A stretch of DNA of 64,000 nt from an uncultured Acidobacteriaceae bacterium (GCA_963804735.1 CAWDRO010000014.1:110252-174251), one strand, 5' to 3'. Shown: positions 28,404-42,124, counted from the stretch's first letter. Translations and numbers: made by a program. Notes: generated from the letters alone by a model not told the origin.

Positions 28404-29135
28404 TCACCACCGCGCATGCATCAGAAACTCCTTATTCCCCTCCGCACCCAAAATCGGAGAATCGGTCACATCAATCTCACATCCGCCAAGCTCAACGACG
28501 CACCCTCGGACCCGATCAATCGCCACCTGATGCCCCAAGGGATCGCGAACAATCCCACCTTTGCCGACATACTCTCGCCCTGCATCGAACTGCGGCTTGA
28601 CTAGCACAACCACTTCCCCAAGCGACCCGCCAATCGCCGCAATCACCGCCGGCAGCACCAGAGTCGCCGAGATAAACGAGACATCCATCGCAAGAAACGA
28701 AATCCCCTCCGGCAAATCCCCCGGCTTGAGCAACCGCGCATTCGTTCGCTCCATCAGCGACACTCGAGCGTCCGAACGCAGACTCTGCGCGATCTGCCCA
28801 TAGCCGGTATCGATCGCCAGCACCCGCGCCGCTCCGTGCTGCAACATGCAGTCGGTGAAACCGCCGGTCGAAGCGCCAACATCCACGCAGAATCTTGCCG
28901 CAAGCTCGATCTGCCAATGCTTCAGCGCGGCCTCGAGCTTCAGCCCTCCGCGCCCCACGTAGCGCGGATCGTCGCCAAGCAGGCGAAAGACCGCGTCTTC
29001 GGCAATCGCGGTTCCCGGCTTGTCAACCTTTTGCTCGTTCACCAGCACGCGCCCGGCGACCACCATCGCCTGCGCGCGTTCCCGCGTCGGGGCCAGTCCT
29101 CGCTCCACAAGCAATTTGTCGAGCCGTGTTTTCAT
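28404..29135 (-). CDS. tlyA: TlyA family rRNA (cytidine-2'-O)-methyltransferase
   Basis: S4 domain RLDKLLV; YVGRGGLKL, DVGASTGGFTD, DVSFIS, LVKPQF and GN.EFL motifs. Confidence 0.95.
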   Translation of the reverse strand: MKTRLDKLLVERGLAPTRERAQAMVVAGRVLVNEQKVDKPGTAIAEDAVFRLLGDDPRYVGRGGLKLEAALKHWQIELAARFCVDVGASTGGFTDCMLQHGAARVLAIDTGYGQIAQSLRSDARVSLMERTNARLLKPGDLPEGISFLAMDVSFISATLVLPAVIAAIGGSLGEVVVLVKPQFDAGREYVGKGGIVRDPLGHQVAIDRVRGCVVELGGCEIDVTDSPILGAEGNKEFLMHARW

Positions 29136-29245
29136 CCCGTCAGCACCGATCTTGATCTACGGCGTCAAGAGCAGCCGCGGATATGCTTAAATTACATGGT
29201 TCGCTCAGCGTCGCGAGCCGCCCGCATTCGGCGCTGACCTCCTAA

Positions 29246-29902
29246 ATGCCTGAAGAATCACAAAATCCGCCAGCCTCCCCGGAGCGTTCCTACAACAGCG
29301 AGCCATCGAAGGCCAGACTGCAGGCCGCCAAGGCAGCCGAGGACGCGGAGATGTTGTCTGGAGTTGAGCAAGGCGACCAGGCGGCGATGGGTCTGCTCTT
29401 CGATCGCTATTCGGGCATGGTGTATTCGGTCGCGCTGCGCGTGCTCAAAGATACCGGTCAGGCGGAAGATGTCATGCAGGAGATCTTCATCCAGATATGG
29501 AAGAAGCCGGGTGCATTTATTTCTGGCCGAGGTTCGCTGGGCGCATGGTTAGCTGTCGTTGCGCGAAATCGCGCGATTGACTCGCTGCGGCGTCGCCGGC
29601 CTACGGATTCGGTCGAGGATGTGGTGCTTGCCTCTTCCACCGATCTTGGCGCCGAGGCTGAGCGCAACACGCTGATGGAGAAGGTGCGCGGGTATATGCA
29701 GCAGCTTCCGCCCGAGCAACGGAAGTCGCTCGAGATGGCCTACTTCGAGGGGATGAGTCATTCGGAGATCGCCGAAAAAACCGGTGACCCGTTGGGCACG
29801 GTGAAGACGCGGATTCGGCTGGCGCTGATTACGCTGAGAAAGGCAATGCAAGGCAAGACAATCTCGAGTTCGGCTATTAAGGGAGAAGCAGTCCAACCGT
29901 GA
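29246..29902 (+). CDS. ECF RNA polymerase sigma factor (SigK-like)
   Basis: Region 2 AEDVMQEIF..IW and ARNRAID; region 4 AYFEGMSHSEIA...PLGTVKTRIR. Confidence 0.93.
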   Translation: MPEESQNPPASPERSYNSEPSKARLQAAKAAEDAEMLSGVEQGDQAAMGLLFDRYSGMVYSVALRVLKDTGQAEDVMQEIFIQIWKKPGAFISGRGSLGAWLAVVARNRAIDSLRRRRPTDSVEDVVLASSTDLGAEAERNTLMEKVRGYMQQLPPEQRKSLEMAYFEGMSHSEIAEKTGDPLGTVKTRIRLALITLRKAMQGKTISSSAIKGEAVQP

Positions 29903-30747
29903 ACGGACACCACATTTCGGACGAGGACTTGGTCCTCTACTCCATCCAATCGCTCTCGGCCGGCGAGACCGCCGCCGCGGCGCTGCATCTGGAGGAGTGC
30001 GCGGAGTGTGCCCGCCAACTCGCAGAGGTCTCTGGCGACCTCGCACTGCTCTCGCTGAGCGTCGAGCAGCAACCAATTCCAGCCGGGGCGCGCGATCGGT
30101 TCATGAGCCGCGTCGCTGCCGAGCCGCAGACTGCGGTTGCCACCGCACGAGCAACTACGCCTGTGGTGGCTGCGCCGAAGAGTGAGCCAGCGCCTGCCCG
30201 CGTCATTCACGAGGTCAAGCCTCGCCGCAACTGGTTCCCGATTCTTGTTCCGTCGGCGGCTGCATTTGCATTGCTGGCACTCGCCGGCTACCTCGGCAAC
30301 CAGAACCAGCGTCTCAACGAACTGCTCAACAACGACAAGGGTGAGATCGCGAAGCTCTCTGCGTCAGCGACGCACGCCGAAGAAGTGCTGGAAACCCTTA
30401 CTTCTCCGGCGGCGAAGCAAGTTACGTTGACCGAGGGCAAGGGTGCGCCTCCGCCTACTGGTCGCACCAGCTACCTTGCCGATAAGGGTGCGTTGGTGTT
30501 TGTTGGGAATAACCTGAAGCCGATTCCTGCTGACAAGACTTATGAACTATGGGTGATTCCGGCTGATGGAAAAGCACCTATTCCCGCCGGACTCTTCCGC
30601 CCTGACGACCATGGCTCGGCCAGCGTGGTATTACCCAAGCTGCCCGAAGGTGTGCCTGCCAAGGCATTCTGTGTGACAATTGAAAACGCTGAAGGCTCGG
30701 CCACGCCGACTATGCCCATCGTCCTCTCGGGTGCTGCTGGATTGTAA
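29899..30747 (+). CDS. Anti-sigma factor (RskA-like)
   Basis: HLEECAEC zinc-binding anti-sigma motif; TM helix; YELWVIP and F.VTIE..EGS..PT; overlaps the sigma stop codon. Confidence 0.88.
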   Translation: MNGHHISDEDLVLYSIQSLSAGETAAAALHLEECAECARQLAEVSGDLALLSLSVEQQPIPAGARDRFMSRVAAEPQTAVATARATTPVVAAPKSEPAPARVIHEVKPRRNWFPILVPSAAAFALLALAGYLGNQNQRLNELLNNDKGEIAKLSASATHAEEVLETLTSPAAKQVTLTEGKGAPPPTGRTSYLADKGALVFVGNNLKPIPADKTYELWVIPADGKAPIPAGLFRPDDHGSASVVLPKLPEGVPAKAFCVTIENAEGSATPTMPIVLSGAAGL

Positions 30748-31251
30748 GATCCGAATCGTGGCGGAGGCGAGCACCCCTGCCACCCCCTACTCCTCTAAGC
30801 ATCCTAGTTTGATGTAGTTAGCCGATTTGTGCGCAAAGATATGCAATTAAATGACTTACTCGCAGAGTCCTTACTCTGATTGGGTTATATGCGGACGGCC
30901 TTTCTGTGGTGGCTTGTCGCCACAGAGATGGATTTTTGCCGCCTGACTTTTTGTTTTGATCTATATCTCTATTTTATCAGGTTAGATGGTTTCACTACGC
31001 CAACTATTTGTGGCTTGTAAGTGATGGGATGATTGAGGTTAGTCTGTGGTGTTGGCGAGAACGATACTTGACAGGTTCTGACGCGCTCGTGGTTTTGTGT
31101 GGCGATGGCCGATCTAATTCTTTGAAAGGGTCGATCAGATTTGGCGATAGATGAAGACGACTTGGATGGGGATCTGAAGTCGAGTCGAAGGTCGGGCCTG
31201 TGAGATAAACTTGCCGTTTGCTTTGCGGTAACGTCGGCGTTACCATGGCTT

Positions 31252-31578
31252 ATGGCAGACGTTCGCGAGTACGTGGACACACGCGGACGAGTGCCTTACC
31301 GCGATTGGGTTTCCGATCTCGATGCTGCCACGAGTGCTCGGGTCATTGCCGCCGTGCTTCGCATGGAGGGCGGCAATTTTTCACAGGCTAAGAGCGTGGG
31401 CGCGGGGGTTTCGGAGCTGCGTCTGGATTTTGGCCCGGGGTATCGGGTCTATTTCGGCAGGGACGGCGAGGAACTGGTGATCCTGCTCGGTGGCGGCTCC
31501 AGGCAGCGGCAGCGTACGGACATCGAAAAGGCACATGGACTTTGGGCCGAATACAAGAGGAGAAAGCGGGAGGAATAG
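31252..31578 (+). CDS. Type II TA toxin, RelE/ParE superfamily ('addiction module killer', HigB-like)
   Basis: GN....KSVG.GV.ELR.DFGPGYRVYF...G..LV.LLGGG...Q..DI.KA signature. Confidence 0.9.
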   Translation: MADVREYVDTRGRVPYRDWVSDLDAATSARVIAAVLRMEGGNFSQAKSVGAGVSELRLDFGPGYRVYFGRDGEELVILLGGGSRQRQRTDIEKAHGLWAEYKRRKREE

Positions 31579-31896
31579 ATGCCACTGACACGGAGTTTCC
31601 GGGAGACGATCAAGGAGCAGCTGGCGAAGGACGATTTCCGGCGCGAGTTCTTGCGCGAGGCGGTGAGCAACATGATCGCCGGAGATTTGGAGACGGCCAA
31701 GTCGGTGTTGCGCGAATACATTAATGGGACCATCGGGTTTCCCGCACTGGGCGAGGCGCTCTCCAAGTCGCCGAAGAGCCTGATGCGGATGCTTAGCGTG
31801 CAGGGAAATCCGCAGGCGCGGAACTTGTTTGAGATCGTGGCCCATCTTCAGAAGGTTGATGGAACGGTGCTGGAAGTGCAGGCTTCGGCGGCGTAG
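31579..31896 (+). CDS. Type II TA antitoxin ('addiction module antidote', HTH)
   Basis: Start abuts the toxin stop; HTH-like segment followed by LS..GNP..RNL..I...L. Confidence 0.8.
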   Translation: MPLTRSFRETIKEQLAKDDFRREFLREAVSNMIAGDLETAKSVLREYINGTIGFPALGEALSKSPKSLMRMLSVQGNPQARNLFEIVAHLQKVDGTVLEVQASAA

Positions 31897-31922
31897 GTTT
31901 AGGTCAACTCGCAAGGTGGAAT

Positions 31923-31957
31923 CCCACGTCTCAAAAGCGAGACGTGGAGCACCCGGC
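31923..31957 (+). repeat. REP-like palindrome, family A (CCCACGTCTC-AAAAGC-GAGACGTGG-AGCACCCGGC)
   Basis: Variant of the palindromes at 34692 and 35758 with a compensatory A-T to G-C pair change. Confidence 0.8.
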
Positions 31958-31996
31958 TCAGCCCCCTGCTAATGAAAGACACCCGACTCCCCGCTC

Positions 31997-32497
31997 TCAT
32001 TCCTGAAACAGAATTTCTGGGAATGCATTTCGGGCAACAAGTGTCTCGCCAATCATGACTCCTTTCCGGTGAGGCTTGTTGATGTAGGCCCGGAACTGTT
32101 TATTGGGTGGCGCTGTGACGATAATTTGGTATTGGTCCTCGCGTTCCCCCTTTGAGTTCTGGCGCATCTCGACGAATTTCATGATCTGCCCGTAGCTAAG
32201 CGCACATATCGCCTTGGCGCCAATGCAGACGAGCACTGCGAAGACGCTGGTGCAGTGCTCCCTCAGCTTTGTAAGCTCGTCTAAATGCGCTTGAGTGAAG
32301 TTAAAGATGTACTCGTTCGCGGCACCACGGGGCGACCCGGCATACTTGATGTATATCCCCGTCGTGTCGTTGATGCGAAACGCGCACCCCGACTTCTTTC
32401 CGTTGCTCCAGAAGGCGTTGATCGCCTTGAAAACGGGATGCTCGGCAATCTGAGTAAGTGCTGCGCCGTGGTACATGTGGTCGTCGTTAATCTTCAT
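31997..32497 (-). CDS. Hypothetical protein (166 aa) co-transcribed with the DGQHR gene
   Basis: GGAGG RBS; starts 10 nt after the DGQHR stop; no recognisable family. Confidence 0.75.
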   Translation of the reverse strand: MKINDDHMYHGAALTQIAEHPVFKAINAFWSNGKKSGCAFRINDTTGIYIKYAGSPRGAANEYIFNFTQAHLDELTKLREHCTSVFAVLVCIGAKAICALSYGQIMKFVEMRQNSKGEREDQYQIIVTAPPNKQFRAYINKPHRKGVMIGETLVARNAFPEILFQE

Positions 32498-32506
32498 ACT
32501 TGCCTC

Positions 32507-33679
32507 CTATGCCACGTGGCTCCCACTGTTAAGCTGAGCGCGCAGTTGTTCCTGAAGCTCCTTGATGACATTGCTGCCTGCCTCATCCGTCAGTTCTCCC
32601 GCCATAGCGGCGGCGATGATCAGTGCAGCCTTATTCCCTGACATGCCAGCTACGGCCCGCTCTCCGGTAGCCTCCTTACTCCAATCGAAGCGCGACCTCG
32701 CTTGCTTGAGATAGCGGGCAAAATCCTTGGGATCCACCCGGCCTTGGGGCATGCATCGATCAATGATTGCGGCAGCAAGAATCGAAAGGCTCCAAACCCC
32801 GACGTTCTTGAGGAGGAGATAATCTTTGGGGTTAGCCCACTCTTCAGAGAACACAGTCTTCACTGCCTGCCAGTAATTTCGGATTACGACGTACTGGATT
32901 TGTGCGTCTCCAAGATCGTAGATGTACTGGCTCTTCGAGAGGAGCTTGGCCACGCCGCCCTGGATGCTTGCGAAATTGACCAGTCTGGTTAATCCTTGCT
33001 GGCGAGTGCCCTTCTTTGAGCCGCCTTCGTGGATCATTCCATGCCATGGGGAGTCGGGGTCTTTGCTGAGTCTGCTGGCCAACCAGCGGTCGAGGTGATC
33101 GCGAATTTCAATCTCCTCGGGGCTTAGCCGATTCTGCATTACCGCGAGGTGTGAGGAGCTCAGTCCCTTCTGATTGCTGTTGATGTTGACAAAGAGCGAC
33201 CGTTCTTGGTCTTGACTGAGACCCACGTGAATCTGAAAAGGGGCGTCAGCAAGCAGGGGATCACGTCGATCATCGCCGGCGGCATGAAATAGTCGATGGT
33301 TTCCATCTACGCGGCTGACGTAGACCTTTCCTTCCTTCATTTCGCTGATCTGAAACTGAAGTTTGACGACTTGTGTGCCGTCCGGCCCCTCCTCAATCTT
33401 CAAGAGCTTCTTGTCGCGCACGTTGAGGACTACTTCTGGGAAGGCGCGCGGGTAATCCGGATCTTTTTGGCGGTGTACGTACTCGTATGCTTCGCTCGCA
33501 TGCTTTGGGGACAGGTCGCGCTGCAGTCCTTTTGGATTAGTGACCTGGTCGAATATATCCGGTTGGGAGATCATCGCTAGATGTGCAAGCGGCGCTGAGC
33601 CCCGGAAGCACACCGTGTCTAAATTCTTTGCTCTGTATGCCGTCAACTCGACGGCGTGGATACCTGCTAGTTTTGGCAT
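32507..33679 (-). CDS. DGQHR / DndB-like domain protein
   Basis: LQR.L...H...(A)..Y, FP..V.LN, VDGNHR, E..LF..IN..QK motifs of the DGQHR family; ATG 33679 with GAGGAG RBS. Confidence 0.85.
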   Translation of the reverse strand: MPKLAGIHAVELTAYRAKNLDTVCFRGSAPLAHLAMISQPDIFDQVTNPKGLQRDLSPKHASEAYEYVHRQKDPDYPRAFPEVVLNVRDKKLLKIEEGPDGTQVVKLQFQISEMKEGKVYVSRVDGNHRLFHAAGDDRRDPLLADAPFQIHVGLSQDQERSLFVNINSNQKGLSSSHLAVMQNRLSPEEIEIRDHLDRWLASRLSKDPDSPWHGMIHEGGSKKGTRQQGLTRLVNFASIQGGVAKLLSKSQYIYDLGDAQIQYVVIRNYWQAVKTVFSEEWANPKDYLLLKNVGVWSLSILAAAIIDRCMPQGRVDPKDFARYLKQARSRFDWSKEATGERAVAGMSGNKAALIIAAAMAGELTDEAGSNVIKELQEQLRAQLNSGSHVA

Positions 33680-33689
33680 GGGAAAGCTC

Positions 33690-33796
33690 CTCATTATTGA
33701 GATGTCGTCTCTCAATAATGAGATTATAACACTCCCAATTGAGAGTCAAACTATCAATTGAGATTATTTTATCTAAACTGAGAGTACAACTCTCAG
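33690..33796 (-). promoter_or_regulatory. Promoter/operator region of the DGQHR operon
   Basis: Minus-strand TTGACT (33744-49)-N15-TATAAT (33723-28). Perfect 13-bp inverted repeat CTCATTATTGAGA-N7-TCTCAATAATGAG at 33690-33722. CAATTGAGA twice (33736, 33755). CTGAGAG-N5-CTCTCAG at 33778-96. Confidence 0.65.
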
Positions 33797-34046
33797 ATAT
33801 GAGAAAAATCCAGTAAGAGATTGATGTAGATGATTTTGTTGATGAATCCTCGAAAGCAGGTCGCGGACGCGGTGGGCTCGTCTGTCGGGGAATATAGGCG
33901 ATTTGCTTGCCGCTGCGACCGAGGTCTTGGCCAGGGTGCGTCCTCTTTTGAAAGGCGTGAGCCGGTCTCCGTTGGGCATTAAGGAAGCACGCGACAACGA
34001 AGGGTATAGCGGCGATTGCCTGATGTGGGCCGCCCAGCTGTTGACG

Positions 34047-34253
34047 CTACGGCATTTGAAACGCTCCCACCGCGATGGCGTTGGGGTGTTTGGCGGCGGG
34101 GAGCATGGTGAAGAGTGCTCCGATTTTGCGGGGGCCTTGGGGGAGTAGCTGGTGGTGCGGATGACGGCGACGTCTCCGAAGCGGGGGTTGGCGACGAGGA
34201 CGAGATGGCCAACGCTCGAAAAGGCGAGGGCGTCGGGGCCGTCTCCGACCTGG
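34047..34253 (-). pseudogene. Displaced 3' fragment of the YVTN gene (copy F1, includes the stop codon, one 1-nt deletion)
   Basis: Translates QVGDGPDALAFSSVGHLVLVANPRFGDVAVIRTTSYS / QGPRKIGALFTMLPAAKHPNAIAVGAFQMP*, matching the C-terminus of 39434..40825. Confidence 0.92.
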
Positions 34254-34295
34254 GTGCGCTGATGGGTTGGGAGGGCGTCTCGGTTAAAGAGCCCG

Positions 34296-34377
34296 GGGCT
34301 AAAGCCCTTCTCGTTCGCTCGCGTTGTTTCGGCGGCCTAAAGGCCGCCGCTTCCACCGGATCGCCTTCGGCGATTTT
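34296..34377 (+). repeat. Triple-hairpin REP-like element L1 (GGGCTAAAGCCC...GCGGCCTAAAGGCCGC..ATCGCCTTCGGCGAT)
   Basis: Near-identical copies at 35943 and 41983. Confidence 0.88.
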
Positions 34378-34403
34378 GGAATGCAAATCTATTCCGGGCC
34401 TAA

Positions 34404-34485
34404 GACGTCTACGGAGCGGGGGCTGGCGACGAGGACGAGGTGGCCAACGATCGAGAAGGCGAGGGCGTCGGGGCCGTCTCCGACC
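34404..34485 (-). pseudogene. Shorter YVTN 3' fragment (copy F2)
   Basis: GGAGCGGG...GAGAAGGCGAGGGCGTCGGGGCCGTCTCCGACC matches about 39560-39638; preceded by the tail AATCTATTCCGGGCCTAA shared with F3. Confidence 0.85.
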
Positions 34486-34646
34486 ACGGCGCAACGATGA
34501 AGGAGACTCGAGGCAAACGAAGGCGAAGGGTTCCATTCAAATCAGCAGTTCGCGTTCATAGACCATCTCCGGCGTTAGGTGGTTGTGGAGAGCGATGAAC
34601 AATTCCTCGTGGACATGACTTCTTTGCGCCAGGGGCGTGCGGTTGG

Positions 34647-34726
34647 ACGCGTCAGTGGCGGGGTTGCAGAGAGGCCGCGCTCTGGCGAAAACCCACATCT
34701 CAAAATCGAGATGTGGGGCACCCGGC
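34647..34726 (+). repeat. About 80-bp direct repeat R1 with REP family A core CCCACATCTC-AAAATC-GAGATGTGGG-GCACCCGGC
   Basis: Matches R2 at 35713-35792. Confidence 0.9.
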
Positions 34727-34774
34727 CGTGCCCCTTCATAGAGCTCTGTCGGGTTTTGGAGCATCGCTGGAACC

Positions 34775-34814
34775 GCAGGTCCTTCCCCTTCGCGATGCTC
34801 AGGGTCAGGATGAC
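34775..34814 (+). repeat. REP-like element, family B (GGTCCTTC...CAGGATGAC)
   Basis: Same ends as the copies at 40686, 40756, 46425 and 51564. Confidence 0.75.
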
Positions 34815-34937
34815 GTTTGTTGGAGGTTGGGAGATTTGATCCCCCACCCTTGCCACCCCATCACCCCACTCTGCAAAAAATAGTTTCATCGCATCAGTCC
34901 CATTGCTGTATGGTTTTCTGACTGGCAAGGGGAACGA

Positions 34938-35688
34938 TTGCACATCCATACAACCGCATCCTGGCCCGGGCGTGACGATCGCCGGGCGGCGCTGGTCTGG
35001 CTTGGCATCTTCTGGATCTTCGTAGGCGTCGGCTTCGGCTTCGATCTGCACAACTACTTTCATGAGCAGCCGGCCGTGCCGATGATCGTCCACATACATG
35101 CTATCGCCACCACGCTCTGGCTGCTCACCGCAACCGCGCTTGTGCTCATGGTCGAAAGCGGCAATGTGCGCCTGCATCGCCGCCTGGGTTGGTTTGCGGC
35201 CGGTTACGCCGCTCTCATCCTGGTGATCGGTCCCTGGTCGGAACTCAGTTGGCAGGCCTTGAACCTTCCGACCCCCGGCGCTCTGCCTCCTCAATTTCTT
35301 TCCATCGCCTTCAGCGGAGTCATTTGCATGGCCTTTGCTGCTGCCGTGGGGCATTCTCATGCGCCGCAATTCCGCCGCCCATCGGCGCGTGCTCATTCTG
35401 GCCATCATCTGCATCAGCGATGCGGGTTTTTCCCGGTTTGTGAGTCTCTTTCTGCCTGCGCCAACCACCTTTCTCGGCACCTACCTGTTTTACGAGGGCG
35501 GTAATCTGTTCCTCATCCTTCTCATGTTTCTCTGGGACTGGAAACGCAACCGGATCATGAAACAGTTCCTCTGGGGAGGCTCCCTCGTAATCGCTCTGGG
35601 CCTGACGGCCACGGGCCTCTACTTCAACGAGACATGGAAAGCGATCACGCTCTCGTGGCTGGAGGCGTGGGGGCGGCACATGCTGTAA
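34938..35688 (+). pseudogene. Multi-TM membrane protein (DUF2306-like) split by a +1 frameshift near 35334-35336
   Basis: Hydrophobic ORF 34938 (HIHA..TLW, LHRRLGW) continues in the +1 frame as LLLPWG...AAHRRVLILA...WGRHML*. Removing one T from GCC TTT GCT gives GCC TTG CTG and a single ORF of about 250 aa. Confidence 0.75.
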
Positions 35689-35712
35689 AGCCACGCGCCC
35701 TGATGCGGATGT

Positions 35713-35792
35713 ACGCGTCAGTCGGCGGGGTTGCAGAGAGGCCGCCCTCCGACGGAACCCACATCTCAAAATCGAGATGTGGGGCACCCGGC
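35713..35792 (+). repeat. About 80-bp direct repeat R2
   Basis: Matches R1. Confidence 0.9.
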
Positions 35793-35811
35793 GAATCTAT
35801 TCCGGCCCTAA

Positions 35812-35897
35812 GACGTTTCCGGAGCGGGAGTTGGCGACGAGGACGAGGTGGCCAACGCTTGAGAAGGCGAGGGCGTCGGGGCCGTCTCCGATCTGGG
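35812..35897 (-). pseudogene. YVTN 3' fragment (copy F3)
   Basis: CCGGAGCGGGAGTTGGC...GAGAAGGCGAGGGCGTCGGGGCCGTCTCCGATCTGG matches about 39560-39641. Confidence 0.85.
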
Positions 35898-35942
35898 CGG
35901 CGTTGTTGCGTTAGGCGGGGCGTCTCGGTGGCAGAGGCCCAA

Positions 35943-36024
35943 GGCTAAAGCCCTTCTCTTTAGCTGGCGTTGTTTTCGGCGGCCTGAAGACCGCCGCTTC
36001 CACCGGATCGCCTGCGGCGATTTG
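35943..36024 (+). repeat. Triple-hairpin REP-like element L2
   Basis: Copy of L1/L3. Confidence 0.85.
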
Positions 36025-36125
36025 GGGTGAGAACCTGTTCGATTTGATTCTCAGCTCCGGACAATCAATTTCCATAGATTGAGGGCTTGAAGTTCCGCGT
36101 CTCAAGGGCGAGAGGCTGATGTGCG

Positions 36126-36163
36126 TGTGATAGCCATCACATTCTTGTGTGACTTCGATCACT
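36126..36163 (+). promoter_or_regulatory. Tandem CRP-type boxes TGTGA-TAGCCA-TCACA (36126) and TGTGA-CTTCGA-TCACT (36148)
   Basis: One perfect and one 9/10 match to TGTGA-N6-TCACA, 22 bp apart, upstream of the USP gene. Confidence 0.85.
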
Positions 36164-36214
36164 GCAAACGAGTCCTGCTCAGCTCATATTGGAGAGGAAA
36201 AGGAGGACACTCCC

Positions 36215-37222
36215 ATGCAACCTACCAATATCAGCCCCTCTCAGATGGCAACGTTTGTGAAGCCAAACCATATCCTGGTCGCCAGCGATTTGACCGATGG
36301 CGACTTTCTTGTCCCTTATGTCGTCGGTCAAGCTAAGGCCAGCGGCGCCCGGGTGACGCTGGTGCACGCAATACTACCGGCCAATTCGTTTCCAATGGAG
36401 TCGGGCTATGCTCCGTATGCCGATGAGAAGATCCTTGACCGGGAGGCCCGCCTGGCATTGCAGGGGATTGCTCGCCAGATCGAGCATGAGGGAGTTCCCT
36501 GCGATATTTATCTCGCGCATGGCTTTGCCGGAGATGTGATTCGCGACGAGATCAGGATGACCGGGGCGACTCGGCTCATCATGGGAACCCATGGAAGGGG
36601 AAAATGGGGACAGCTGGCGATGGGTTCCGTAGCCAATGAGCTGTTAGGCAGCGTGGATGTGCCGGTATTCATTGTCGGCCCGAACGTTTCGCCGGTAATA
36701 GAACATGTGACGCCTCGGAGGATTCTGCATCCCGTCTCGTTGATCGGCGACTACAAAAAGAGCCTGGAGATTGCGTGGAACCTGGCCAAGGCCTATGAAG
36801 CGGAGCTGACCCTGCTGCATGTTATGGATCTGGATGCGGATACGACTGTGTCAGATGTGGGGTCGCGTTCGATTACGTGGGCTGAAAAAGCCATCCTCGC
36901 GGTGCTCCCGGAAGGTACGGACATGCCAGCAATTAAAGTGAGGGCCGTTTGCGGGCGCCTGGTGGAGGGAGTTCTCCAGGAAGCGGCGGAGATGAAGGCG
37001 GACTGGATCGTTCTGGGCGTCAACAACAGATTTCCTTCGCTGCCGTTCCGTAATACCGCTGCCTATCAGATCGTGGCGCGGGCGGGGTGCTGCGTGCTGG
37101 CGGTGCGACACGATTCTCGAATACTGACGGTCGAGGACGACAGACTATCTGTGGTGAGCGAAGGACTATCTGTCAACGGCGAAAGAGTAGCTTTCGACCG
37201 TTGCGCGGTGGGCGCACTCTAG
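36215..37222 (+). CDS. Universal stress protein (tandem USP domains)
   Basis: ILVASDL, IMGTHGRG....L.MGSVA..L...V..PV motifs; second USP domain; AGGAGG RBS. Confidence 0.92.
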   Translation: MQPTNISPSQMATFVKPNHILVASDLTDGDFLVPYVVGQAKASGARVTLVHAILPANSFPMESGYAPYADEKILDREARLALQGIARQIEHEGVPCDIYLAHGFAGDVIRDEIRMTGATRLIMGTHGRGKWGQLAMGSVANELLGSVDVPVFIVGPNVSPVIEHVTPRRILHPVSLIGDYKKSLEIAWNLAKAYEAELTLLHVMDLDADTTVSDVGSRSITWAEKAILAVLPEGTDMPAIKVRAVCGRLVEGVLQEAAEMKADWIVLGVNNRFPSLPFRNTAAYQIVARAGCCVLAVRHDSRILTVEDDRLSVVSEGLSVNGERVAFDRCAVGAL

Positions 37223-37246
37223 AAACGCCCAGGGGGAGGGTTTTAT

Positions 37247-37504
37247 ATGCGGTGCGCAAACGCCAACTGCAGGACCGAGACTTTGTATTTCAGGGGCGGG
37301 AGCCTGCATTGCGTAGACCGGTGCGATGATGCGCCTAGCGGGGTGAAGCAGGAGCGGCGGCAGCTGGTCTGGCTTTGCCCCGATTGTTCGCGCGATTTTG
37401 TGGTGGAAAGCTGGAGGGCACCGGGCGAGCAGTTAGTGCGCCGTCGATTGCCGCCCATCCCGGTTCTGGCCGATTCCGATAAGAGTGTCATGATGGCTGC
37501 TTAG
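37247..37504 (+). CDS. Small Cys-rich putative zinc-binding protein
   Basis: GGAGG RBS; CANANC...WLCPDC (CxxxxC and CxxC). Confidence 0.65.
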   Translation: MRCANANCRTETLYFRGGSLHCVDRCDDAPSGVKQERRQLVWLCPDCSRDFVVESWRAPGEQLVRRRLPPIPVLADSDKSVMMAA

Positions 37505-37570
37505 GTAAATATTCTGGAAACCCGACTCTCGAAGGAAGATAATGAGAAAGTCTTCCAGCGAGGGTGAGAA

Positions 37571-38281
37571 ATGCCGTTACACGCCCGGCGAGCAGTGGAT
37601 CGGTGTCTTGAGTGTAGCCATCGAACCCTCCGCGTGTTTTGCAACCTGGATGACGCCGCGTTCCAGGCCTACGATCAGATAGGCTCGCACATGAACCTGC
37701 CCAGCCGGTCGATCGTTTTTGAAGAGAGCCAGACGGCGAATGGCGTATATGTCGTATGTTCCGGGCAGTTGAAGCTCTCGGCCATGTCTAAAGATGGCAG
37801 GACGATGATTCTGCGAATCGCCGGGCCGGGCGATGTCCTCGGACTTAGCGCCACATTGAGCGATCTTCCTCACGAGGTTACGGCGGAGACACTGGAACCT
37901 ACCCAACTGAAGCACGTTCGGCGGACTGAGTTTCTTCGGTTTCTTGAAGATCATGCCGAGGTCGGCGAAAAGGCGGCGAGGACGCTCGCGAAGGAATATC
38001 AGGCGGTGTTTCTCGATGCGCGGCGTTTGGCCCTTTCGGGCTCCGCGGCTGGGAAGCTGGCCCAGTTGTTGTTGGAATGGGCGAATACGGCTGCCTGCGG
38101 AAAGCCGGAGCTCCGTTTCACGATGGCGCTTACGCATGAGGAACTGGCGAACATGGCAGGGACTTCGCGGGAGACCGTAACCCGGCTTTTGAACCAGTTT
38201 GAGCGCGATCATCTGATTGTTCGACGCGGCTCGTCGCTGACTATTCTTAATGCTGAAGGGCTCGAACTCCAGACGCAGTAA
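37571..38281 (+). CDS. Crp/Fnr family transcriptional regulator
   Basis: cNMP-binding fold (G.LKL...SKDGR..IL...GPGDVLG); HTH LTHEELANMAGTSRETVTR; N-terminal CLEC...FC. Confidence 0.95.
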   Translation: MPLHARRAVDRCLECSHRTLRVFCNLDDAAFQAYDQIGSHMNLPSRSIVFEESQTANGVYVVCSGQLKLSAMSKDGRTMILRIAGPGDVLGLSATLSDLPHEVTAETLEPTQLKHVRRTEFLRFLEDHAEVGEKAARTLAKEYQAVFLDARRLALSGSAAGKLAQLLLEWANTAACGKPELRFTMALTHEELANMAGTSRETVTRLLNQFERDHLIVRRGSSLTILNAEGLELQTQ

Positions 38282-38357
38282 GTTGCCGGGCCGCTAGCGG
38301 CGCTTCGTTCGCGCTGTGCTTTCACTGTTCCCTGAGAAGACTTCCTGGAAATCTCCT

Positions 38358-38395
38358 TGTGATCCAGATCACACCTTCAGGTGACTCGCGTCACT
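38358..38395 (+). promoter_or_regulatory. Tandem CRP-type boxes TGTGA-TCCAGA-TCACA (38358) and GGTGA-CTCGCG-TCACT (38380)
   Basis: One perfect and one 8/10 match, again 22 bp apart, upstream of the second USP gene. Confidence 0.85.
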
Positions 38396-38448
38396 GCGAC
38401 TGCGCACGCCGCCGGTGCATGGTTAAGACAGAAAGAGGGAGAACAACC

Positions 38449-39339
38449 ATGGAAAACGGCAGCTTGCAGTTCAAGACCATCACAGTGGCTACTGACCTGA
38501 CTTATACTTCATCGTCTGCGCTGCGTTACGCCCAGGCGCTGGCGTTCTTCCACCACGCGACTTTGTGTGTCATGCATGTCATCGACCCAGTCGGCTTTGC
38601 CTTTCCCGAGGGCGAGCCGTCATTTCATGAGGCCGGACTGGCGGCGAAGGAAGAACTAAGGAGAATCGAGGAGGAGACGCGGCTGATGGGCATTCCGGTC
38701 CATTCTGTCATCGAGACGGGGACCATTTGTGAGCGTATTCTCGAGGCGGTCAAGAACAATAATGCAGATTTGTTGATTGTAGGAACCCAGGGGAAGACGG
38801 AGGCGGGCAGAGTCGCGCTGGGCAGGATCGCGCGCCGGCTACTGGCGAAGTCGCCCTGTCCGATCATGACCGTTTCGCCGGGCGCCGAAACTTCTATGCC
38901 GTTGGTTGGCTGTTGGCGGCGCGTTTTGGCAGCGACTGATTTTTCTCCCGCTTCGATTGCAGCGGTGAAGTATGCCCACCAGGTGGCATTGAGACAACTG
39001 ACAGTCCTTCATGTCTCAGTCTGCCAGAGGGAAGGCAACTGCTCAAGCTGCGAGGGAAGGCTTCGCTTCATAGCTCCATTCAATGAATCGCACACCGTGC
39101 CTGTGGAGCATGTTGTGCTGTCGGGCAACGCCGGCGAGAGGATCGGCTGGTGCGCTCGCCGGTGTGGAGTAGATCTGGTGGTTTTGGGTTCTCCTGCGGA
39201 GGAACTTGCCGAAGAGGACCTTGAAACGAGTACGGTTTTGCAGGTGGTTTCTAATGTTAACTGCCCGGTGCTGTGTATTCCGCGAATGGGCCAGCCTGCC
39301 AATTCCGACAGCCTGATTCGGGAAGTTGCGTTTGCCTGA
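38449..39339 (+). CDS. Universal stress protein (tandem USP domains)
   Basis: ITVATDL, ADLLIVGT.G......LG.IA..LL.KSPCPIMTV; RVLAATDFS; VNCPVL. Confidence 0.92.
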   Translation: MENGSLQFKTITVATDLTYTSSSALRYAQALAFFHHATLCVMHVIDPVGFAFPEGEPSFHEAGLAAKEELRRIEEETRLMGIPVHSVIETGTICERILEAVKNNNADLLIVGTQGKTEAGRVALGRIARRLLAKSPCPIMTVSPGAETSMPLVGCWRRVLAATDFSPASIAAVKYAHQVALRQLTVLHVSVCQREGNCSSCEGRLRFIAPFNESHTVPVEHVVLSGNAGERIGWCARRCGVDLVVLGSPAEELAEEDLETSTVLQVVSNVNCPVLCIPRMGQPANSDSLIREVAFA

Positions 39340-39433
39340 TGCGTGAAGTCGATGCCGATTGGGTCGAACCATGTGGTACATCCCGTGGCTTCAGGTCGAA
39401 GCCGTTTGATGTTGGGTCACCTCAGTCCGACCG

Positions 39434-40825
39434 TCATGGCATCTGGAAGGCCTTCACGGCGATGGCATTGGGGTGTTTGGCGGCGGGGAGCATGGTGAAT
39501 AGGGTTCCGATTCTTCTTGCGCCCTGGGGAGAGTAGCTGGTGGTGCGGATGACGGCGATGTCTCCGGAGCGGGAGTTGGCTACGAGCAGGATGTGACCCT
39601 CGCTGGAGAAGGCGAGGGCGTCGGGGCCGTCTCCGACCTGGATCATGTTGACGCGCTGGCCGTCGTCGATGGAGTAGACGCCGACGGTGTTCGCGCTGAA
39701 GTTGCTGACCCAGAGGGTGGAATTGTCGGCGCTAACGATGCCGCGAGAGGGATGTTCGCCGATAAGCGTGGCGCCGCCGACTTCATTGTTTCCTGTTGCG
39801 ATCTCAGAGATGGTGTTGCTGTCGAAGTTGGAGACGAAGATCTCACCGCCGTCGGGTTTCATAGCGAGGTTGATGGGGGTCTGGCCGACGTCGAGGAAGT
39901 CGAGGAGATGGTCGGTCTTTTCGCTTTCGGTGAGCGGTGTATTCGGGTCGGGTTTGCGGACGAGGGCGAGGACCATGACCTGATGTCCGGCGGAGCAGGC
40001 GATGAAGGCCTTGGAGGAGTCGGGGAGGATGACGGCGTCGGTGGCTCCGGGGCAGTTGGGGAAGACGGCGCGGACTTTCAGTGTGGGGCCATCGATGACG
40101 GTGACGCTGCCGCCGACGCGATTGGTGACGACGAGGGTCTGGTTGTCGGGGGAGATGCGGGCGAGGCCGGGGGCTTCGCCGACTCCGACGGTGGCGATCT
40201 CTTTGCGGCGGTCGAGGTCGAGGACGGAGACGTTGTTGGAGCCGGAGTTGGCGACGTAGCCGCGATGGCCGTCCTGGGAGACGTCGATGAAGTACGGCTT
40301 CTTGTGAACGGGGATGGTGGCGGCGACGGCGTTCTTCTGGGCGTCGATGACGGAGATGGTGCCTGATCCGGAGTTGACGACGTAGACCTCGTTGCGGGTG
40401 AGGGAGATGGCGACTCCGGTGGGGTCGTCGCCGACGGGGAATTCGCGATCGCGGCGGAGATTGACGATGTCGAGGACGGTGACGGTGTTGCTGGCGGAGT
40501 TGGTGACGTAGGCGTATTCGCGGTAGTTGGTGGGGTATTGGGGGAAGTCGTGGGGGCGGCAGGCTGTTAATAGGGCGCAGAGGAGGAGGGCGGCGATTGC
40601 CTCTGCGGCTGCTTTTCTTTTGAGGGTTGGATGGCCCGGCTGACGCCGTAGCCCTTCATCGTGCGCGAGGGGGGCGCAAGGTGTGGGTCCTTCGACTTCG
40701 TGCTTCGCACTTCGCTCAGGATGACAAGAATTTGTTGAGTTTGGAAGAAACTGCTGGTCCTTCGACTCGCGCTTCGCGTCTCGCTCAGGATGACAAACAT
40801 TTGTTTGTTCCGACCGAATTGACAC
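39434..40825 (-). CDS. YVTN/YncE-type beta-propeller lipoprotein; 5' end uncertain
   Basis: YVTN, YVVNSGS and YVANSGS blades; lipobox LLTAC. The first ~55 codons are translated REP sequence. Confidence 0.85.
   Translation of the reverse strand: MSIRSEQTNVCHPERDAKRESKDQQFLPNSTNSCHPERSAKHEVEGPTPCAPLAHDEGLRRQPGHPTLKRKAAAEAIAALLLCALLTACRPHDFPQYPTNYREYAYVTNSASNTVTVLDIVNLRRDREFPVGDDPTGVAISLTRNEVYVVNSGSGTISVIDAQKNAVAATIPVHKKPYFIDVSQDGHRGYVANSGSNNVSVLDLDRRKEIATVGVGEAPGLARISPDNQTLVVTNRVGGSVTVIDGPTLKVRAVFPNCPGATDAVILPDSSKAFIACSAGHQVMVLALVRKPDPNTPLTESEKTDHLLDFLDVGQTPINLAMKPDGGEIFVSNFDSNTISEIATGNNEVGGATLIGEHPSRGIVSADNSTLWVSNFSANTVGVYSIDDGQRVNMIQVGDGPDALAFSSEGHILLVANSRSGDIAVIRTTSYSPQGARRIGTLFTMLPAAKHPNAIAVKAFQMP
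40686..40794 (+). repeat. Two tandem REP family B elements (40686-40725, 40756-40794)
   Basis: GGTCCTTCGACT...CGCTCAGGATGAC, twice. Confidence 0.85.
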
Positions 40826-40828
40826 CGT

Positions 40829-41899
40829 TTAGCGACCGCTCTTGGTTGCGCCTGCGGGCTCGGCGATTTCGATGCCGTGGGGGATGTTTCGGTGGAGGAT
40901 TTTGGCGATCTGGGTGCACTCGTCCATCATTTCTACGAATTGCTCGGGGTAGATGGATTGGGCTCCGTCGGAGAGGGCTTTGTCAGGTTCGTGGTGGACC
41001 TCGACCATGAGACCGTCGGCTCCGACGGCGACTGCGGCGCGGGCGAGGGGGACGACCTTGTTGCGCTTGCCGGTTCCGTGGCTGGGGTCAACGAGTATGG
41101 GCAAATGGCTGAGGCGGTGAACGGCAGGCACGAGGCTGAGGTCGAGGGTGTTGCGAGTGTGGTCAACAAAAGTGCGGATGCCGCGTTCGCAGAGGATGAC
41201 CTGGTAGTTGCCCTCGGACATGATGTATTCGGCGGCCATGAGGAGTTCATCTAGCGTGGCTGACATTCCGCGCTTGAGCAGGACGGGTTGGCGCTTGCGG
41301 CCGACGGCCTTGAGCAGAGTGTAGTTCTGCATGTTGCGCGCGCCGATCTGAATGATGTCGGCGTAGTCGGCGACTAGGTCGAGGTTCTCGGTGTCCATCG
41401 CCTCGGTGACGATGCGGAGACCGAAGCGGTCGCGGATCTCGGCCATGATGATGAGCGCGGTTTCGCCGAGGCCCTGGAACATGTAGGGCGAGGTGCGGGG
41501 CTTGTAGGCTCCTCCGCGAAAGAATTGCGCGCCGGCGGCGGCGACTTGTTCGGCGACGGCGAATGCCTGTTCATGGGTCTCGATCGAGCAAGGGCCGGCG
41601 ACGATGGCTAGGTCGCGTCCGCCGATGGTGGCGTTGGTGCCGGGGAAGGTGATGACGGTGTCTTCTTCCTTCACGTCGCGGCTGACGAGTTTGTAGGGCT
41701 TGGTGACGCGGATGACCTCGGCGACTCCGGAGAGCTCTTCGATGTTGCCCTGGTCGATTTGGCCCTGGTTGCCGGTGATGCCGATGGCGGTGCGCTGGGC
41801 TCCGGGCATGGGATGGGGGCGGAAGCCGAGTTTTTCGATCTGTTCGCAAACGGTGGCGATTTGCTCAGGCGTGGCCTGGGCCTTCATGACGACGAGCAT
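40829..41899 (-). CDS. aroF: 3-deoxy-7-phosphoheptulonate (DAHP) synthase, type I-beta with N-terminal regulatory domain
   Basis: [39 protein letters not shown] and DPSHGTG motifs. Confidence 0.95.
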
Positions 41900-41982
41900 G
41901 GTGGAACCCTCTTGCGGTGCAGGTTTTAGTGTACCGGGGAGGTTGCGGGAGGGGCAATGTGGGAGGGACGAAGGAGAACCCA

Positions 41983-42064
41983 GGGCTAAAGCCCTTTTCT
42001 TAAGCTGGCGTCATTTCGGCAGCCTAAAGGTCGCCGCTTCCACCGGATCGCCTTCGGCGATTTT
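41983..42064 (+). repeat. Triple-hairpin REP-like element L3
   Basis: GGGCTAAAGCCC...GCAGCCTAAAGGTCGCCGCTTCCACCGGATCGCCTTCGGCGATTTT; copy of L1/L2. Confidence 0.85.
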
Positions 42065-42124
42065 GCGCGACCGGATGTTTTTGGCGAATTTGTGCGATTG
42101 ACTGACGATTCGATACGAACCGGG

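What the first reader, a model, noticed from the sequence alone, without database searches (positions are those of the whole stretch)
34047..39641. Three displaced copies of the YVTN gene's 3' end share a breakpoint: att-like scars or a collapsed foreign copy of the locus
Seen: the last ~68 codons of the YVTN lipoprotein gene (39434-39641) recur at 34047-34253, complete to ...AFQMP*, and partly at 34404-34485 and 35812-35897, all in the same orientation. All three copies stop matching the gene at GTCTCCGA(C/T)C(TGG), within about 3 nt of each other. By hand count F1 differs from the gene at about 14 synonymous versus about 10 non-synonymous codons, plus a TGA/TAG swap and one 1-nt deletion. 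It therefore diverged while still under coding selection and is not simple decay of a recent duplicate. The copies are interleaved with accessory cargo (USP/Crp module, membrane-protein cassette). Established analogy: elements that integrate into a coding 3' end and supply a replacement end, such as e14 in E. coli icd leaving icdC. Inference A: this is a protein-coding integration hotspot that has been hit repeatedly, with no integrase left in the window. Inference B: see the composite-unit finding.
Basis: partly seen in the sequence, partly recalled or inferred. Interest (0 to 1): 0.75.

Follow-up and report, generated by a model that had tools for sequence, protein, structure and literature searches.

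The report
Old gene-end relics in REP mosaic
Three decayed copies of the last ~70 codons of a beta-propeller lipoprotein gene lie among small palindromic repeats downstream of the gene; they descend from one old rearrangement scar that was re-copied locally, not from three separate integrations, so the locus is a fairly ordinary hotspot of genome shuffling.

Summary
The YVTN gene's 3' end (39434-39641) recurs at F1 34047-34253, F2 34404-34485 and F3 35812-35897. All are in the same orientation, and they occur only at this locus in the genome.

The three copies are not independent hits.
- F1 and F3 share the joint b|J-D3 REP.
- F2 and F3 share a second joint, a 3' truncation.
- F2's b joint is also found in an independent JGI contig from another species (L108). 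There the same module (REP, F, joint, membrane gene, REP) sits next to a REP-associated tyrosine transposase gene.

The copies are pseudogene fragments of a different allelic lineage from the resident gene (pS 0.36, dN/dS 0.18). Around them lie two REP families, a frameshifted paralogue of a core membrane gene, and a 3' fragment of GTP-PEPCK.

No tyrosine recombinase gene lies on the 233-kb contig, and the genome has no serine recombinase. The USP-Crp-USP 'cargo' is shared with a relative that has no F copy.

Across the genus, the spacer after the YVTN stop codon (natively about 30 nt, a REP, then htpG) holds varying inserts. The hotspot idea therefore holds, but the att-site mechanism is not supported.

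Best reading: one old duplicative insertion scar, later re-duplicated within a REP cluster. Interest is low to moderate.

The parts
39434..40825 (-). Resident YVTN beta-propeller lipoprotein gene (463 aa). Its last blade plus stop codon is 39434-39641.
   Evidence: The ORF was listed. Family matches are TIGR02276 YVTN repeat x5 and Pfam Lactonase/YNCE. Orthologues occur in 27 of 31 relatives, always next to aroF.
34047..34253 (-). F1: a 5'-truncated copy of the last 68 codons plus stop codon. It is a pseudogene fragment with a 1-nt deletion, a TAG stop, and S->P, S->F and K->G changes at residues invariant in orthologues.
   Evidence: It is 84.8% identical to the resident end, 90.7% to the G005:C7 end and 92-94% to the fragment in L107.
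34404..34485 (-). F2: a copy of the first ~83 nt after the breakpoint, truncated at both ends.
   Evidence: Its right-hand joint and flank (34404-34562) are 91.9% identical to L108:517-676.
35812..35897 (-). F3: a copy like F2. It shares the 3' truncation joint with F2 and the b|J-D3 joint with F1.
34254..34380 (+). J plus D3a: a three-hairpin REP element that abuts the breakpoint of F1.
   Evidence: Found as a repeat. There are 32 genomic hits, including the arrays around the RAYT gene on C24. The fold shows three hairpins.
35898..36026 (+). J plus D3b: the same REP element abutting the breakpoint of F3.
   Evidence: It is 84% identical to 34254-34380 over 127 nt, including J.
41975..42065 (+). 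D3c: a third local copy of the REP, between the ABC permease gene and aroF.
   Evidence: It is absent at this position in G005:C7, G007 and G002.
34638..34734 (+). D4a: a member of a second REP family, with hairpin CCCACATCTC-N6-GAGATGTGGG.
   Evidence: The fold z-score is -3.3.
35704..35800 (+). D4b: a second copy of the D4 REP, directly after the membrane gene copy.
34538..34634 (-). An orphan 3' end fragment of a GTP-dependent PEP carboxykinase gene. It is truncated at its 5' side against D4a.
   Evidence: It is 83-84.5% identical to C1:568463-568559, the 3' end of a 624-aa PEPCK_GTP gene.
34854..35700 (+). A copy of a conserved Acidobacteriaceae membrane-protein gene, frameshifted here into ORFs 34938-35504 and 35335-35688.
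   Evidence: It is 87% identical to the intact copy at C15:749609-750457. The L108 counterpart is 91.6% identical and intact. In L112 the gene's core location is between hisS and aspS.
36149..39339 (+). The USP - Crp/Fnr - USP cluster, lying between F3/D3b and the resident gene end.
   Evidence: Pfam matches are. The cluster is shared with G005:C1 at 86% nt identity (window 36114-40594 = L015:12914-17431). It is absent downstream of YVTN in the other relatives.
31112..36114 (.). A variable slot relative to the nearest syntenic relative. It holds the Gp49-like toxin/antitoxin pair, the DGQHR operon, and the whole F1-F3 REP mosaic.
   Evidence: G005:C1 has a different 3.15 kb here, with ImmA/XRE-like and other genes. 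GC content is 0.50-0.55 against about 0.61 in the flanks.

Best explanation
F1, F2 and F3 are non-functional relics of one old 5'-truncated copy of the YVTN gene's last blade. That copy was later re-duplicated locally inside a cluster of REP elements of the kind associated with REP-associated tyrosine transposases (RAYTs).

Shown:
1. The three copies share joints, so their common breakpoint is inherited.
2. One of these joints, with the membrane gene and flanking REPs, also occurs in another species. There it lies in a different position and orientation relative to aroF-YVTN, next to a RAYT gene. The scar therefore predates that species split.
3. The copies carry an allele of a different lineage from the resident gene and are decaying.
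4. The surrounding DNA is a mosaic of two REP families plus fragments or copies of other genes.

Inferred:
- In relatives the native arrangement is YVTN stop codon, about 30 nt, D3 REP, then htpG. The first fragment probably arose when DNA was inserted between the gene and this neighbour, with duplication of the gene's last ~210-230 nt. The route would be a recA-type single crossover of a circular piece, or homology-anchored illegitimate joining. Contig L107 still shows this layout.
- The divergent allele reflects either donor versus recipient sequence or a later allelic replacement of the resident gene.
- Unequal exchange among the REPs then multiplied and shuffled the fragment.
- Other insertions (USP-Crp-USP, the membrane gene copy, a defence-type islet) accumulated because the REP-containing spacer tolerates them.

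No site-specific recombinase is needed for any of this.
For: Shared joints:
- F1|J-D3a and F3|J-D3b are 84% identical over 127 nt beyond the breakpoint.
- F2 and F3 are 89.9% identical over 109 nt, extending 21 nt past the other end of the homology.
- F1-F3 share the derived GTT codon.

Conservation in another species: L108:267-1836 is collinear with window 34288-35792, including F2's joint (91.9% over 160 nt). Its F copy is inverted relative to its own YVTN gene and is decayed, and a RAYT 3' end abuts the REP.

REP identity:
- D3 has 32 genomic copies and folds into three hairpins.
- The G000 RAYT on C24 matches NF047646 at 111.5 bits (cut-off 80). It is flanked by 1 + 8 REP copies of the same architecture.
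- The genome has four Y1_Tnp genes and REP tandem arrays elsewhere.

Allele lineage:
- F1 against the resident end gives pS 0.36 and dN/dS 0.18, close to interspecies values.
- F1 carries the PRKIGAL-type sequence seen in G002 and G005C7.
- The Val allele exists in a full-length gene, P0001.

Decay: frameshift and changes at invariant residues.

No recombinase.

Native arrangement and variable inserts in relatives. L107 reads htpG, D3, spacer, F, then HK.

Other gene debris in the mosaic: a PEPCK 3' fragment and a frameshifted membrane gene.
Against: - The J stretch is much more diverged between F1 and F3 (about 72%) than F itself (about 92%). That is odd for simple duplicates, unless REPs turn over faster or J is not homologous by descent.
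- A separate joint in other contigs falls within about 5-20 nt of the same point. L107 breaks after GTCTC. L113 keeps a 26-nt remnant spanning the point, 160 nt from an integrase gene. This hints at a preferred break site that my model does not explain.
- The 207-nt tree is unresolved, so the claims 'single F lineage' and 'which end is foreign' rest on a few characters.
- Other orphan 3' fragments in the genome are mostly not next to REPs, so a general REP-linked process is not shown.
Confidence: 0.6

Rival explanations
1. Site-specific integration hotspot, as with e14 in icd. Integrative elements recombine at a short core (about GTCTCCGACCTGG) inside the last blade and bring a replacement 3' end. 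Each event displaces the previous end. The integrase has since been lost.
For: - The layout is a full gene, then cargo, then a displaced 5'-truncated end in direct orientation.
- Breakpoints in three unrelated contexts lie within 13 nt: G000/L108, L107 and L113.
- The L113 remnant lies 160 nt from a PF00589 gene.
- Content downstream of YVTN varies across the genus.
Against: - The 233-kb contig has no tyrosine recombinase and the genome has no serine recombinase.
- The L113 integrase has no homologue in G000.
- The joints of F1, F2 and F3 are shared by descent.
- The resident gene has no mosaic break at 39641, and its end matches cargo-less G007 better than cargo-bearing G005:C1.
- One 'cargo' between copies is only a REP (34254-34403).
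- USP-Crp-USP occurs in G005:C1 without any F copy.
- There is no structured site at the breakpoint.
Confidence: 0.1
2. Collapsed second copy of the locus. A tandem or foreign second copy of [REP-aroF-YVTN] was reduced by a ~2.3-kb deletion from the last blade to the REP upstream of aroF, leaving F joined to a REP. REP-mediated exchange then copied this composite.
For: - A D3 copy (D3c) lies upstream of aroF in the same orientation, 2.3 kb from the breakpoint.
- L108 also has a D3 just upstream of aroF.
- J resembles the outer flank of D3 copies, including D3c.
- The F allele is as diverged as a different species' gene.
Against: - D3a and D3b are no closer to D3c (88%, 84%) than to D3 copies elsewhere: C24 90%, G002 91%, L107 90%.
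- D3c is absent at that site in G002, G007 and G005:C7.
- No trace of a second aroF exists.
- It does not explain the L107 layout.
Confidence: 0.17
3. Assembly artefact or strain chimera in a metagenome-assembled genome.
For: - The genome is a 26-contig MAG with 4.6% contamination.
- Relatives from the same type of project show frameshifted genes.
- Reads could not be checked.
Against: - The copies differ from each other by 8-15% and have unique flanks.
- The F2 joint, membrane gene and REPs recur in an independent JGI assembly of another species.
- A full F next to a D3 recurs in a second JGI contig.
Confidence: 0.03
4. The fragments are kept for a function. For example, read-through transcripts on the + strand (towards the membrane gene or USP1) would carry ~85-200 nt antisense to the YVTN mRNA 3' end.
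For: - F is better conserved than the adjoining J.
- F copies persist in at least three lineages.
- F3 lies about 250 nt upstream of USP1 on the strand antisense to YVTN.
Against: - Complementarity to the resident mRNA is only 84-87%.
- The L108 copy is in the opposite orientation relative to its gene.
- G005:C1 lacks the fragments.
- There is no Rfam match and no expression data.
Confidence: 0.05

Closest known systems
e14 / phage 21 integration into the 3' end of E. coli icd, leaving the displaced icdC pseudo-end (from my own knowledge: Hill et al. 1989, J Bacteriol)
   Same: The gene stays intact, inserted DNA follows it, and a 5'-truncated displaced copy of the gene's 3' end lies at the far side in direct orientation. 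That copy has diverged mainly at synonymous sites.
   Different: There is no integrase and no defined att core. The three copies share joints by descent. The resident end does not look element-supplied. REP elements, not phage DNA, abut the joints.
Sequential displacement arrays downstream of Vibrio cholerae T6SS effector genes (PMC5361080)
   Same: Incoming modules recombine using homology in a conserved gene. Older 3' remnants are left in a row downstream. Homology-facilitated illegitimate recombination is invoked, and no dedicated recombinase is needed.
   Different: There the remnants carry different functional immunity genes and record successive acquisitions. Here the remnants are copies of one another and encode nothing new.
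REP/REPIN clusters with RAYT transposases (PMC3116915, PMC3337134), and REP sequences at join-points of tandem duplications in Salmonella (from my own knowledge: Shyamala et al. 1990, EMBO J)
   Same: Multi-hairpin extragenic repeats occur in tens of copies. A single-copy RAYT gene is flanked by them, and tandem REP arrays are present. REPs sit at rearrangement joints.
   Different: REPIN transposition is not known to carry 200 nt of a neighbouring gene. The link between the RAYT and the F copies is only adjacency, and only in L108.

Membership tests
Integrase-mediated element inserted in a coding 3' end (e14/icd type) | Displaced 5'-truncated copy of the target gene's 3' end, in direct orientation, distal to the inserted DNA | tested here: met
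   F1 is 5.2 kb downstream in the same orientation and complete to the stop codon.
Integrase-mediated element inserted in a coding 3' end (e14/icd type) | Tyrosine or serine recombinase gene in or next to the inserted DNA | tested here: not met
   All 16 PF00589 matches in the genome lie on other contigs, and PF00239 has no match. ORFs between 30.7 and 39.4 kb are a TA pair, the DGQHR operon, the membrane gene, USP and Crp.
Integrase-mediated element inserted in a coding 3' end (e14/icd type) | The resident 3' end is element-derived, seen as a mosaic break at the core, and co-varies with the cargo | tested here: not met
   No step in identity at 39641. The resident end is 89.7% identical to cargo-less G007 but 82.8% to cargo-bearing G005:C1.
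Integrase-mediated element inserted in a coding 3' end (e14/icd type) | Independent insertions give independent flanks at a constant core | tested here: inconclusive
   Within G000 and L108 the flanks are shared. L107 and L113 show different flanks within 13 nt of the same point.
REP / RAYT system | Short palindromic extragenic repeats in many copies | tested here: met
   D3 has 32 BLAST hits and D4 has 15. D3 folds into three hairpins and D4 into one strong hairpin.
REP / RAYT system | A REP-associated tyrosine transposase gene flanked by the same repeats | tested here: met
   The C24:133.1-133.56k gene matches NF047646 at 111.5 bits (cut-off 80) and PF01797. It has 1 upstream and 8 downstream REP copies of D3 architecture. 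In L108 a RAYT 3' end directly abuts the D3 next to F.
REP / RAYT system | Mobilisation of the F-containing unit by the RAYT | not testable with these tools
   Only adjacency is seen. No cleavage-site motif was identified at the breakpoint, and there is no special fold there.
Tandem duplication or amplification with a novel join-point | The same novel joint is repeated in each unit | tested here: met
   The b|J-D3 joint occurs at F1 and F3, and F1|J-D3a-spacer-F2 is contiguous head to tail.
Tandem duplication or amplification with a novel join-point | Units are contiguous and near-identical (recent) | tested here: not met
   Copies differ by 8-10% and are separated by 1.2-3.4 kb of other DNA. 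If this was an amplification, it is old and has been interrupted.
Pseudogene fragment | Lacks a start and most of the gene, and carries disabling changes | tested here: met
   F1 has a 1-nt deletion and changes at invariant residues. F2 and F3 are 83-nt pieces. L108's F has a frameshift and radical substitutions.

The most novel reading that the evidence does not exclude
The ~13-nt stretch GTCTCCGACCTGG at the start of the last YVTN blade may be a preferred recombination point. It would be used repeatedly in this Acidobacteriaceae genus to insert or exchange cargo behind an intact gene by duplicating the gene's end. A dedicated recombinase would not be required, and single-strand Y1 (RAYT-type) enzymes acting on the adjacent REP might be involved.
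Probability: 0.12. Interest if true: 0.6.

Novelty: new member of a known kind. Interest (0 to 1): 0.3.

Why it matters
If my reading holds, the locus shows how REP clusters in Acidobacteriaceae collect and re-copy gene debris. It also shows how the spacer behind a conserved gene becomes a long-lived slot for accessory genes: stress regulators, TA pairs, a DGQHR defence-type operon and a hybrid kinase. That helps with annotating such genomes and with avoiding calls of spurious ORFs or 'att sites'. It does not reveal a new mechanism.

Only the minority reading would be of wider interest. That reading is a preferred break point in a coding sequence, used for cargo exchange without an integrase.

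Tried and rejected
- Genome-wide repeat: rejected. F occurs only at this locus.
- Recent intragenomic duplicate: rejected, because synonymous divergence is at interspecies level.
- Mosaic 3' end in the resident gene: not seen.
- Hairpin at the breakpoint as a hotspot: no fold better than shuffled sequence.
- Known RNA family for D3 or D4: no Rfam match.
- Tree of the 3' ends to decide which end is foreign: unresolved at 207 nt.
- Genome-wide survey for orphan 3' ends next to REPs: a handful of orphan fragments exist, but most are not REP-linked, so no general rule emerged.
- Exact-protein look-up of Crp, and a metagenome search with USP1: nothing found.
- Simple inversion between D3 copies to convert the L108 layout into the G000 layout: the D3 orientations do not fit.
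- L113 integrase as the missing enzyme: it has no homologue in G000.

Full report
**1. Observation**

The YVTN beta-propeller lipoprotein gene occupies 39434-40825 on the minus strand. BLASTN of its last 208 nt against the whole 5.76-Mb genome finds exactly three other matches. All are on the same contig and in the same orientation:
- F1, 34047-34253: 84.8% over 204 nt.
- F2, 34404-34485: 84.1%.
- F3, 35812-35897: 87.1%.

F1 runs through the stop codon. It has TAG where the gene has TGA, and it has one 1-nt deletion. F1 and F3 stop matching the gene after CCGA(C/T)CTGG, and F2 after CCGACC. Nei-Gojobori counts for F1 against the resident end are 18.5 synonymous and 12.5 non-synonymous differences (pS 0.36, dN/dS 0.18).

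**2. The three copies are copies of one another**

- F2 and F3 are about 92% identical to F1 but only 84-87% identical to the gene.
- F1 and F3 share about 125 nt beyond the breakpoint. This is a 34-nt stretch I call J, followed by a 91-nt repeat, D3 (84% over 127 nt).
- F2 and F3 share their other boundary. The homology continues 21 nt past the point where both are cut in mid-blade: AATCTATTCCGGSCCTAAG|ACGT.
- All three carry a GTT (Val) codon that the resident gene and most orthologues lack.

The common breakpoint is therefore inherited from one ancestral joint. It was not produced three times.

**3. What surrounds them**

D3 is a genome-wide repeat with 32 BLAST hits. It folds into three hairpins.

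The genome encodes a REP-associated tyrosine transposase (RAYT) at C24:133.1-133.56k. It matches NCBIfam NF047646 at 111.5 bits (cut-off 80) and Pfam Y1_Tnp. One upstream copy and eight tandem downstream copies of a repeat with the same architecture as D3 flank it. Three more Y1_Tnp genes exist in the genome, and REP tandem arrays occur elsewhere.

A second REP family, D4, forms a strong hairpin (z = -3.3). D4 copies flank a copy of a membrane-protein gene at 34854-35700. That copy is 87% identical to an intact paralogue on C15 and is frameshifted here. The protein is highly conserved in Acidobacteriaceae, and in one relative its gene lies between hisS and aspS.

Between F2 and D4a lies a further orphan gene end at 34538-34634. 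It is the last ~30 codons of a GTP-PEPCK gene whose full copy is on contig C1.

The region 34047-36100 is thus a REP mosaic holding debris from three unrelated genes.

**4. Relatives**

YVTN sits next to aroF in 27 of 31 relatives. The DNA downstream differs between relatives:

| Relative or contig | Content downstream of YVTN |
|---|---|
| G007, L111 | hybrid PAS kinase (HK) + GH + htpG |
| L108 | HK, then htpG |
| L114, L116 | PIN/RHH TA pair, then htpG |
| L113 | htpG directly |
| G005:C7 | DUF417 + TIR |
| G006 | amidase |

The minimal arrangement is YVTN stop codon, about 30 nt, a D3 REP, then htpG (L113; L107).

In G000 and in G005:C1 the gene is instead followed by USP-Crp-USP and then by the TlyA-sigE-antisigma block. 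In other relatives that block lies hundreds of kb away. Between antisigma and USP1 the two genomes differ completely. Window 31112-36114 corresponds to a different 3.15 kb in G005:C1. All F copies lie in this variable slot. USP-Crp-USP lies outside it and is shared with G005:C1, which has no F copy. USP-Crp-USP is therefore not cargo delivered between two of the G000 F copies.

**5. Independent contigs with the same fragment**

A pattern specific to the F allele found JGI contig Ga0209773_10090240 (L107). It reads:
- htpG 5' end;
- D3;
- a 30-nt spacer;
- an intact-frame YVTN end of 200 nt (94% identical to F1, 97% to F3);
- directly after ...GGGGCCGTCTC, the upstream region of the HK gene.

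JGI contig Ga0683294_0002256 (L108) has a YVTN protein 91.5% identical to ours. Upstream of its aroF it carries, in order:
- the 3' end of a RAYT gene;
- D3 and a spacer;
- F (200 nt), inverted relative to its own YVTN gene and decayed by a frameshift and radical substitutions;
- the same joint and flank as window F2 (91.9% over 160 nt);
- an intact membrane gene (91.6% over 1086 nt);
- D4, then D3.

The F2-type joint therefore predates the split of these two species. It also cannot be an assembly artefact of G000.

**6. Allele lineage**

F1, the L107 fragment and the L108 fragment carry the ...PQGPRKIGAL... type of sequence seen in G002, G005:C7 and G003. The resident genes of G000 and L108 carry ...PQGARRIG(T/A)L.... 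A full-length gene with the Val allele exists (P0001). The F1-to-resident pS of 0.36 equals the distance between orthologues of different species (0.32-0.36). F1 also has changes at residues that are invariant in all orthologues, which is decay after displacement. The resident gene shows no identity step at 39641. The 207-nt tree is unresolved, so I cannot say which of the two ends is the incomer.

**7. Recombinases**

All 16 PF00589 matches in G000 lie on other contigs, and PF00239 has no match. In L113 a 26-nt remnant spanning the breakpoint lies in the HK upstream region, 160 nt from a 257-aa PF00589 gene. That integrase has no homologue in G000. Weaker remnants of the same stretch appear upstream of HK in L108 and L111. 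An old YVTN-end fragment therefore seems to travel with the HK upstream region.

Together with the G000/L108 joint, this gives at least two different joints within about 5-20 nt of each other. I cannot explain that by structure, because there is no unusual fold at the site. It is the main point in favour of a preferred break site.

**8. Most likely history**

*Shown.* There was one ancestral 5'-truncated fragment. Its joint is conserved across species. It was re-duplicated locally, and it is embedded in RAYT-type REPs together with other gene debris.

*Inferred.*
- The first fragment arose by a duplicative insertion behind the gene. The route was either a single homologous crossover of a circular piece carrying the gene end, or homology-anchored illegitimate joining. 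L107 preserves this layout.
- The allele difference reflects donor versus recipient sequence, or a later replacement of the resident gene.
- Unequal exchange among REP copies then multiplied and moved the fragment.

I put this at about 0.6. The rivals are:
- a collapsed second copy of the locus: 0.17;
- integrase-type att site: 0.10;
- function as antisense RNA: 0.05;
- assembly artefact: 0.03.

**9. Comparison with known systems**

The layout resembles e14 in icd, but three of four defining features tested are not met or are inconclusive. It resembles the displacement arrays behind V. cholerae T6SS effectors (PMC5361080) in needing no dedicated recombinase. The repeats fit the REP/RAYT description (PMC3116915, PMC3337134). 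REPs at duplication join-points are known from Salmonella (my own knowledge).

**10. Verdict**

The feature is real and correctly observed. It is wrong on repeated independent integration. This is an ordinary, if elaborate, genome-plasticity scar. Interest is 0.3.

Limits:
- Most relatives are draft metagenome assemblies.
- Several inferences rest on short sequences.

Noticed in passing
G000 contig C24:132,900-134,700 (outside the window; locus L118): A REP-associated tyrosine transposase gene (NF047646, 111.5 bits) has one REP copy upstream and eight tandem copies (~130-nt period) downstream. Three more Y1_Tnp genes lie on C15, C11 and C18.
   Followed up: partly
window 34538-34634 (-): An orphan 3' end (about 30 codons plus stop codon) of a GTP-PEPCK gene, truncated against a D4 REP. 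The full gene is at C1:568453-570327. L108 keeps only the stop-proximal ~25 nt of this fragment.
   Followed up: partly
window 34854-35700 (+): A frameshifted extra copy of a conserved Acidobacteriaceae membrane-protein gene (weak DUF420-like match). The intact paralogue is at C15:749695-750504, and the L108 counterpart is intact.
   Followed up: partly
window 31112-34000: A low-GC islet (0.50-0.55) holding a Gp49-like toxin with an HTH partner, plus a DGQHR-domain protein (TIGR03187, 92 bits) with a 166-aa partner. G005:C1 has ImmA/XRE-like and other genes at the same slot, so it looks like a defence-islet hotspot.
   Followed up: partly
window 28404-41961 compared with relatives: A synteny break. 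TlyA-sigE-antisigma lies next to USP-Crp-USP-YVTN only in G000 and G005:C1. In G002, G003, G006 and G007 its neighbour is the block found at G000 C13:283k, and the old neighbour of YVTN is at G000 C8:175.6k.
   Followed up: partly
L113:18457-18482 and 18637-19410: A 26-nt remnant (92%) of the YVTN sequence spanning the breakpoint lies between the HK gene and a 257-aa tyrosine-recombinase-like gene. The recombinase has no homologue in G000.
   Followed up: partly
G005 (loci L015/L024 versus L020): This MAG holds two diverged copies of both the aroF-YVTN locus and the TlyA locus (contig C1 versus C7/C2). Contig C1 probably belongs to a different, G000-like organism that was mis-binned.
   Followed up: no
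G000 C13:570576-570677, C16:215167-215376, C13:377007-377172, C1:20812-20946: Other candidate orphan 3'-end fragments of genes (85-92% identical to the parent gene end). Two lie a few kb downstream of the parent gene, and most are not next to REPs.
   Followed up: partly
L013 (G007) 4368-4463 and 9424-9535: Two D3 REP copies in direct orientation flank the HK-GH insert between YVTN and htpG.
   Followed up: no
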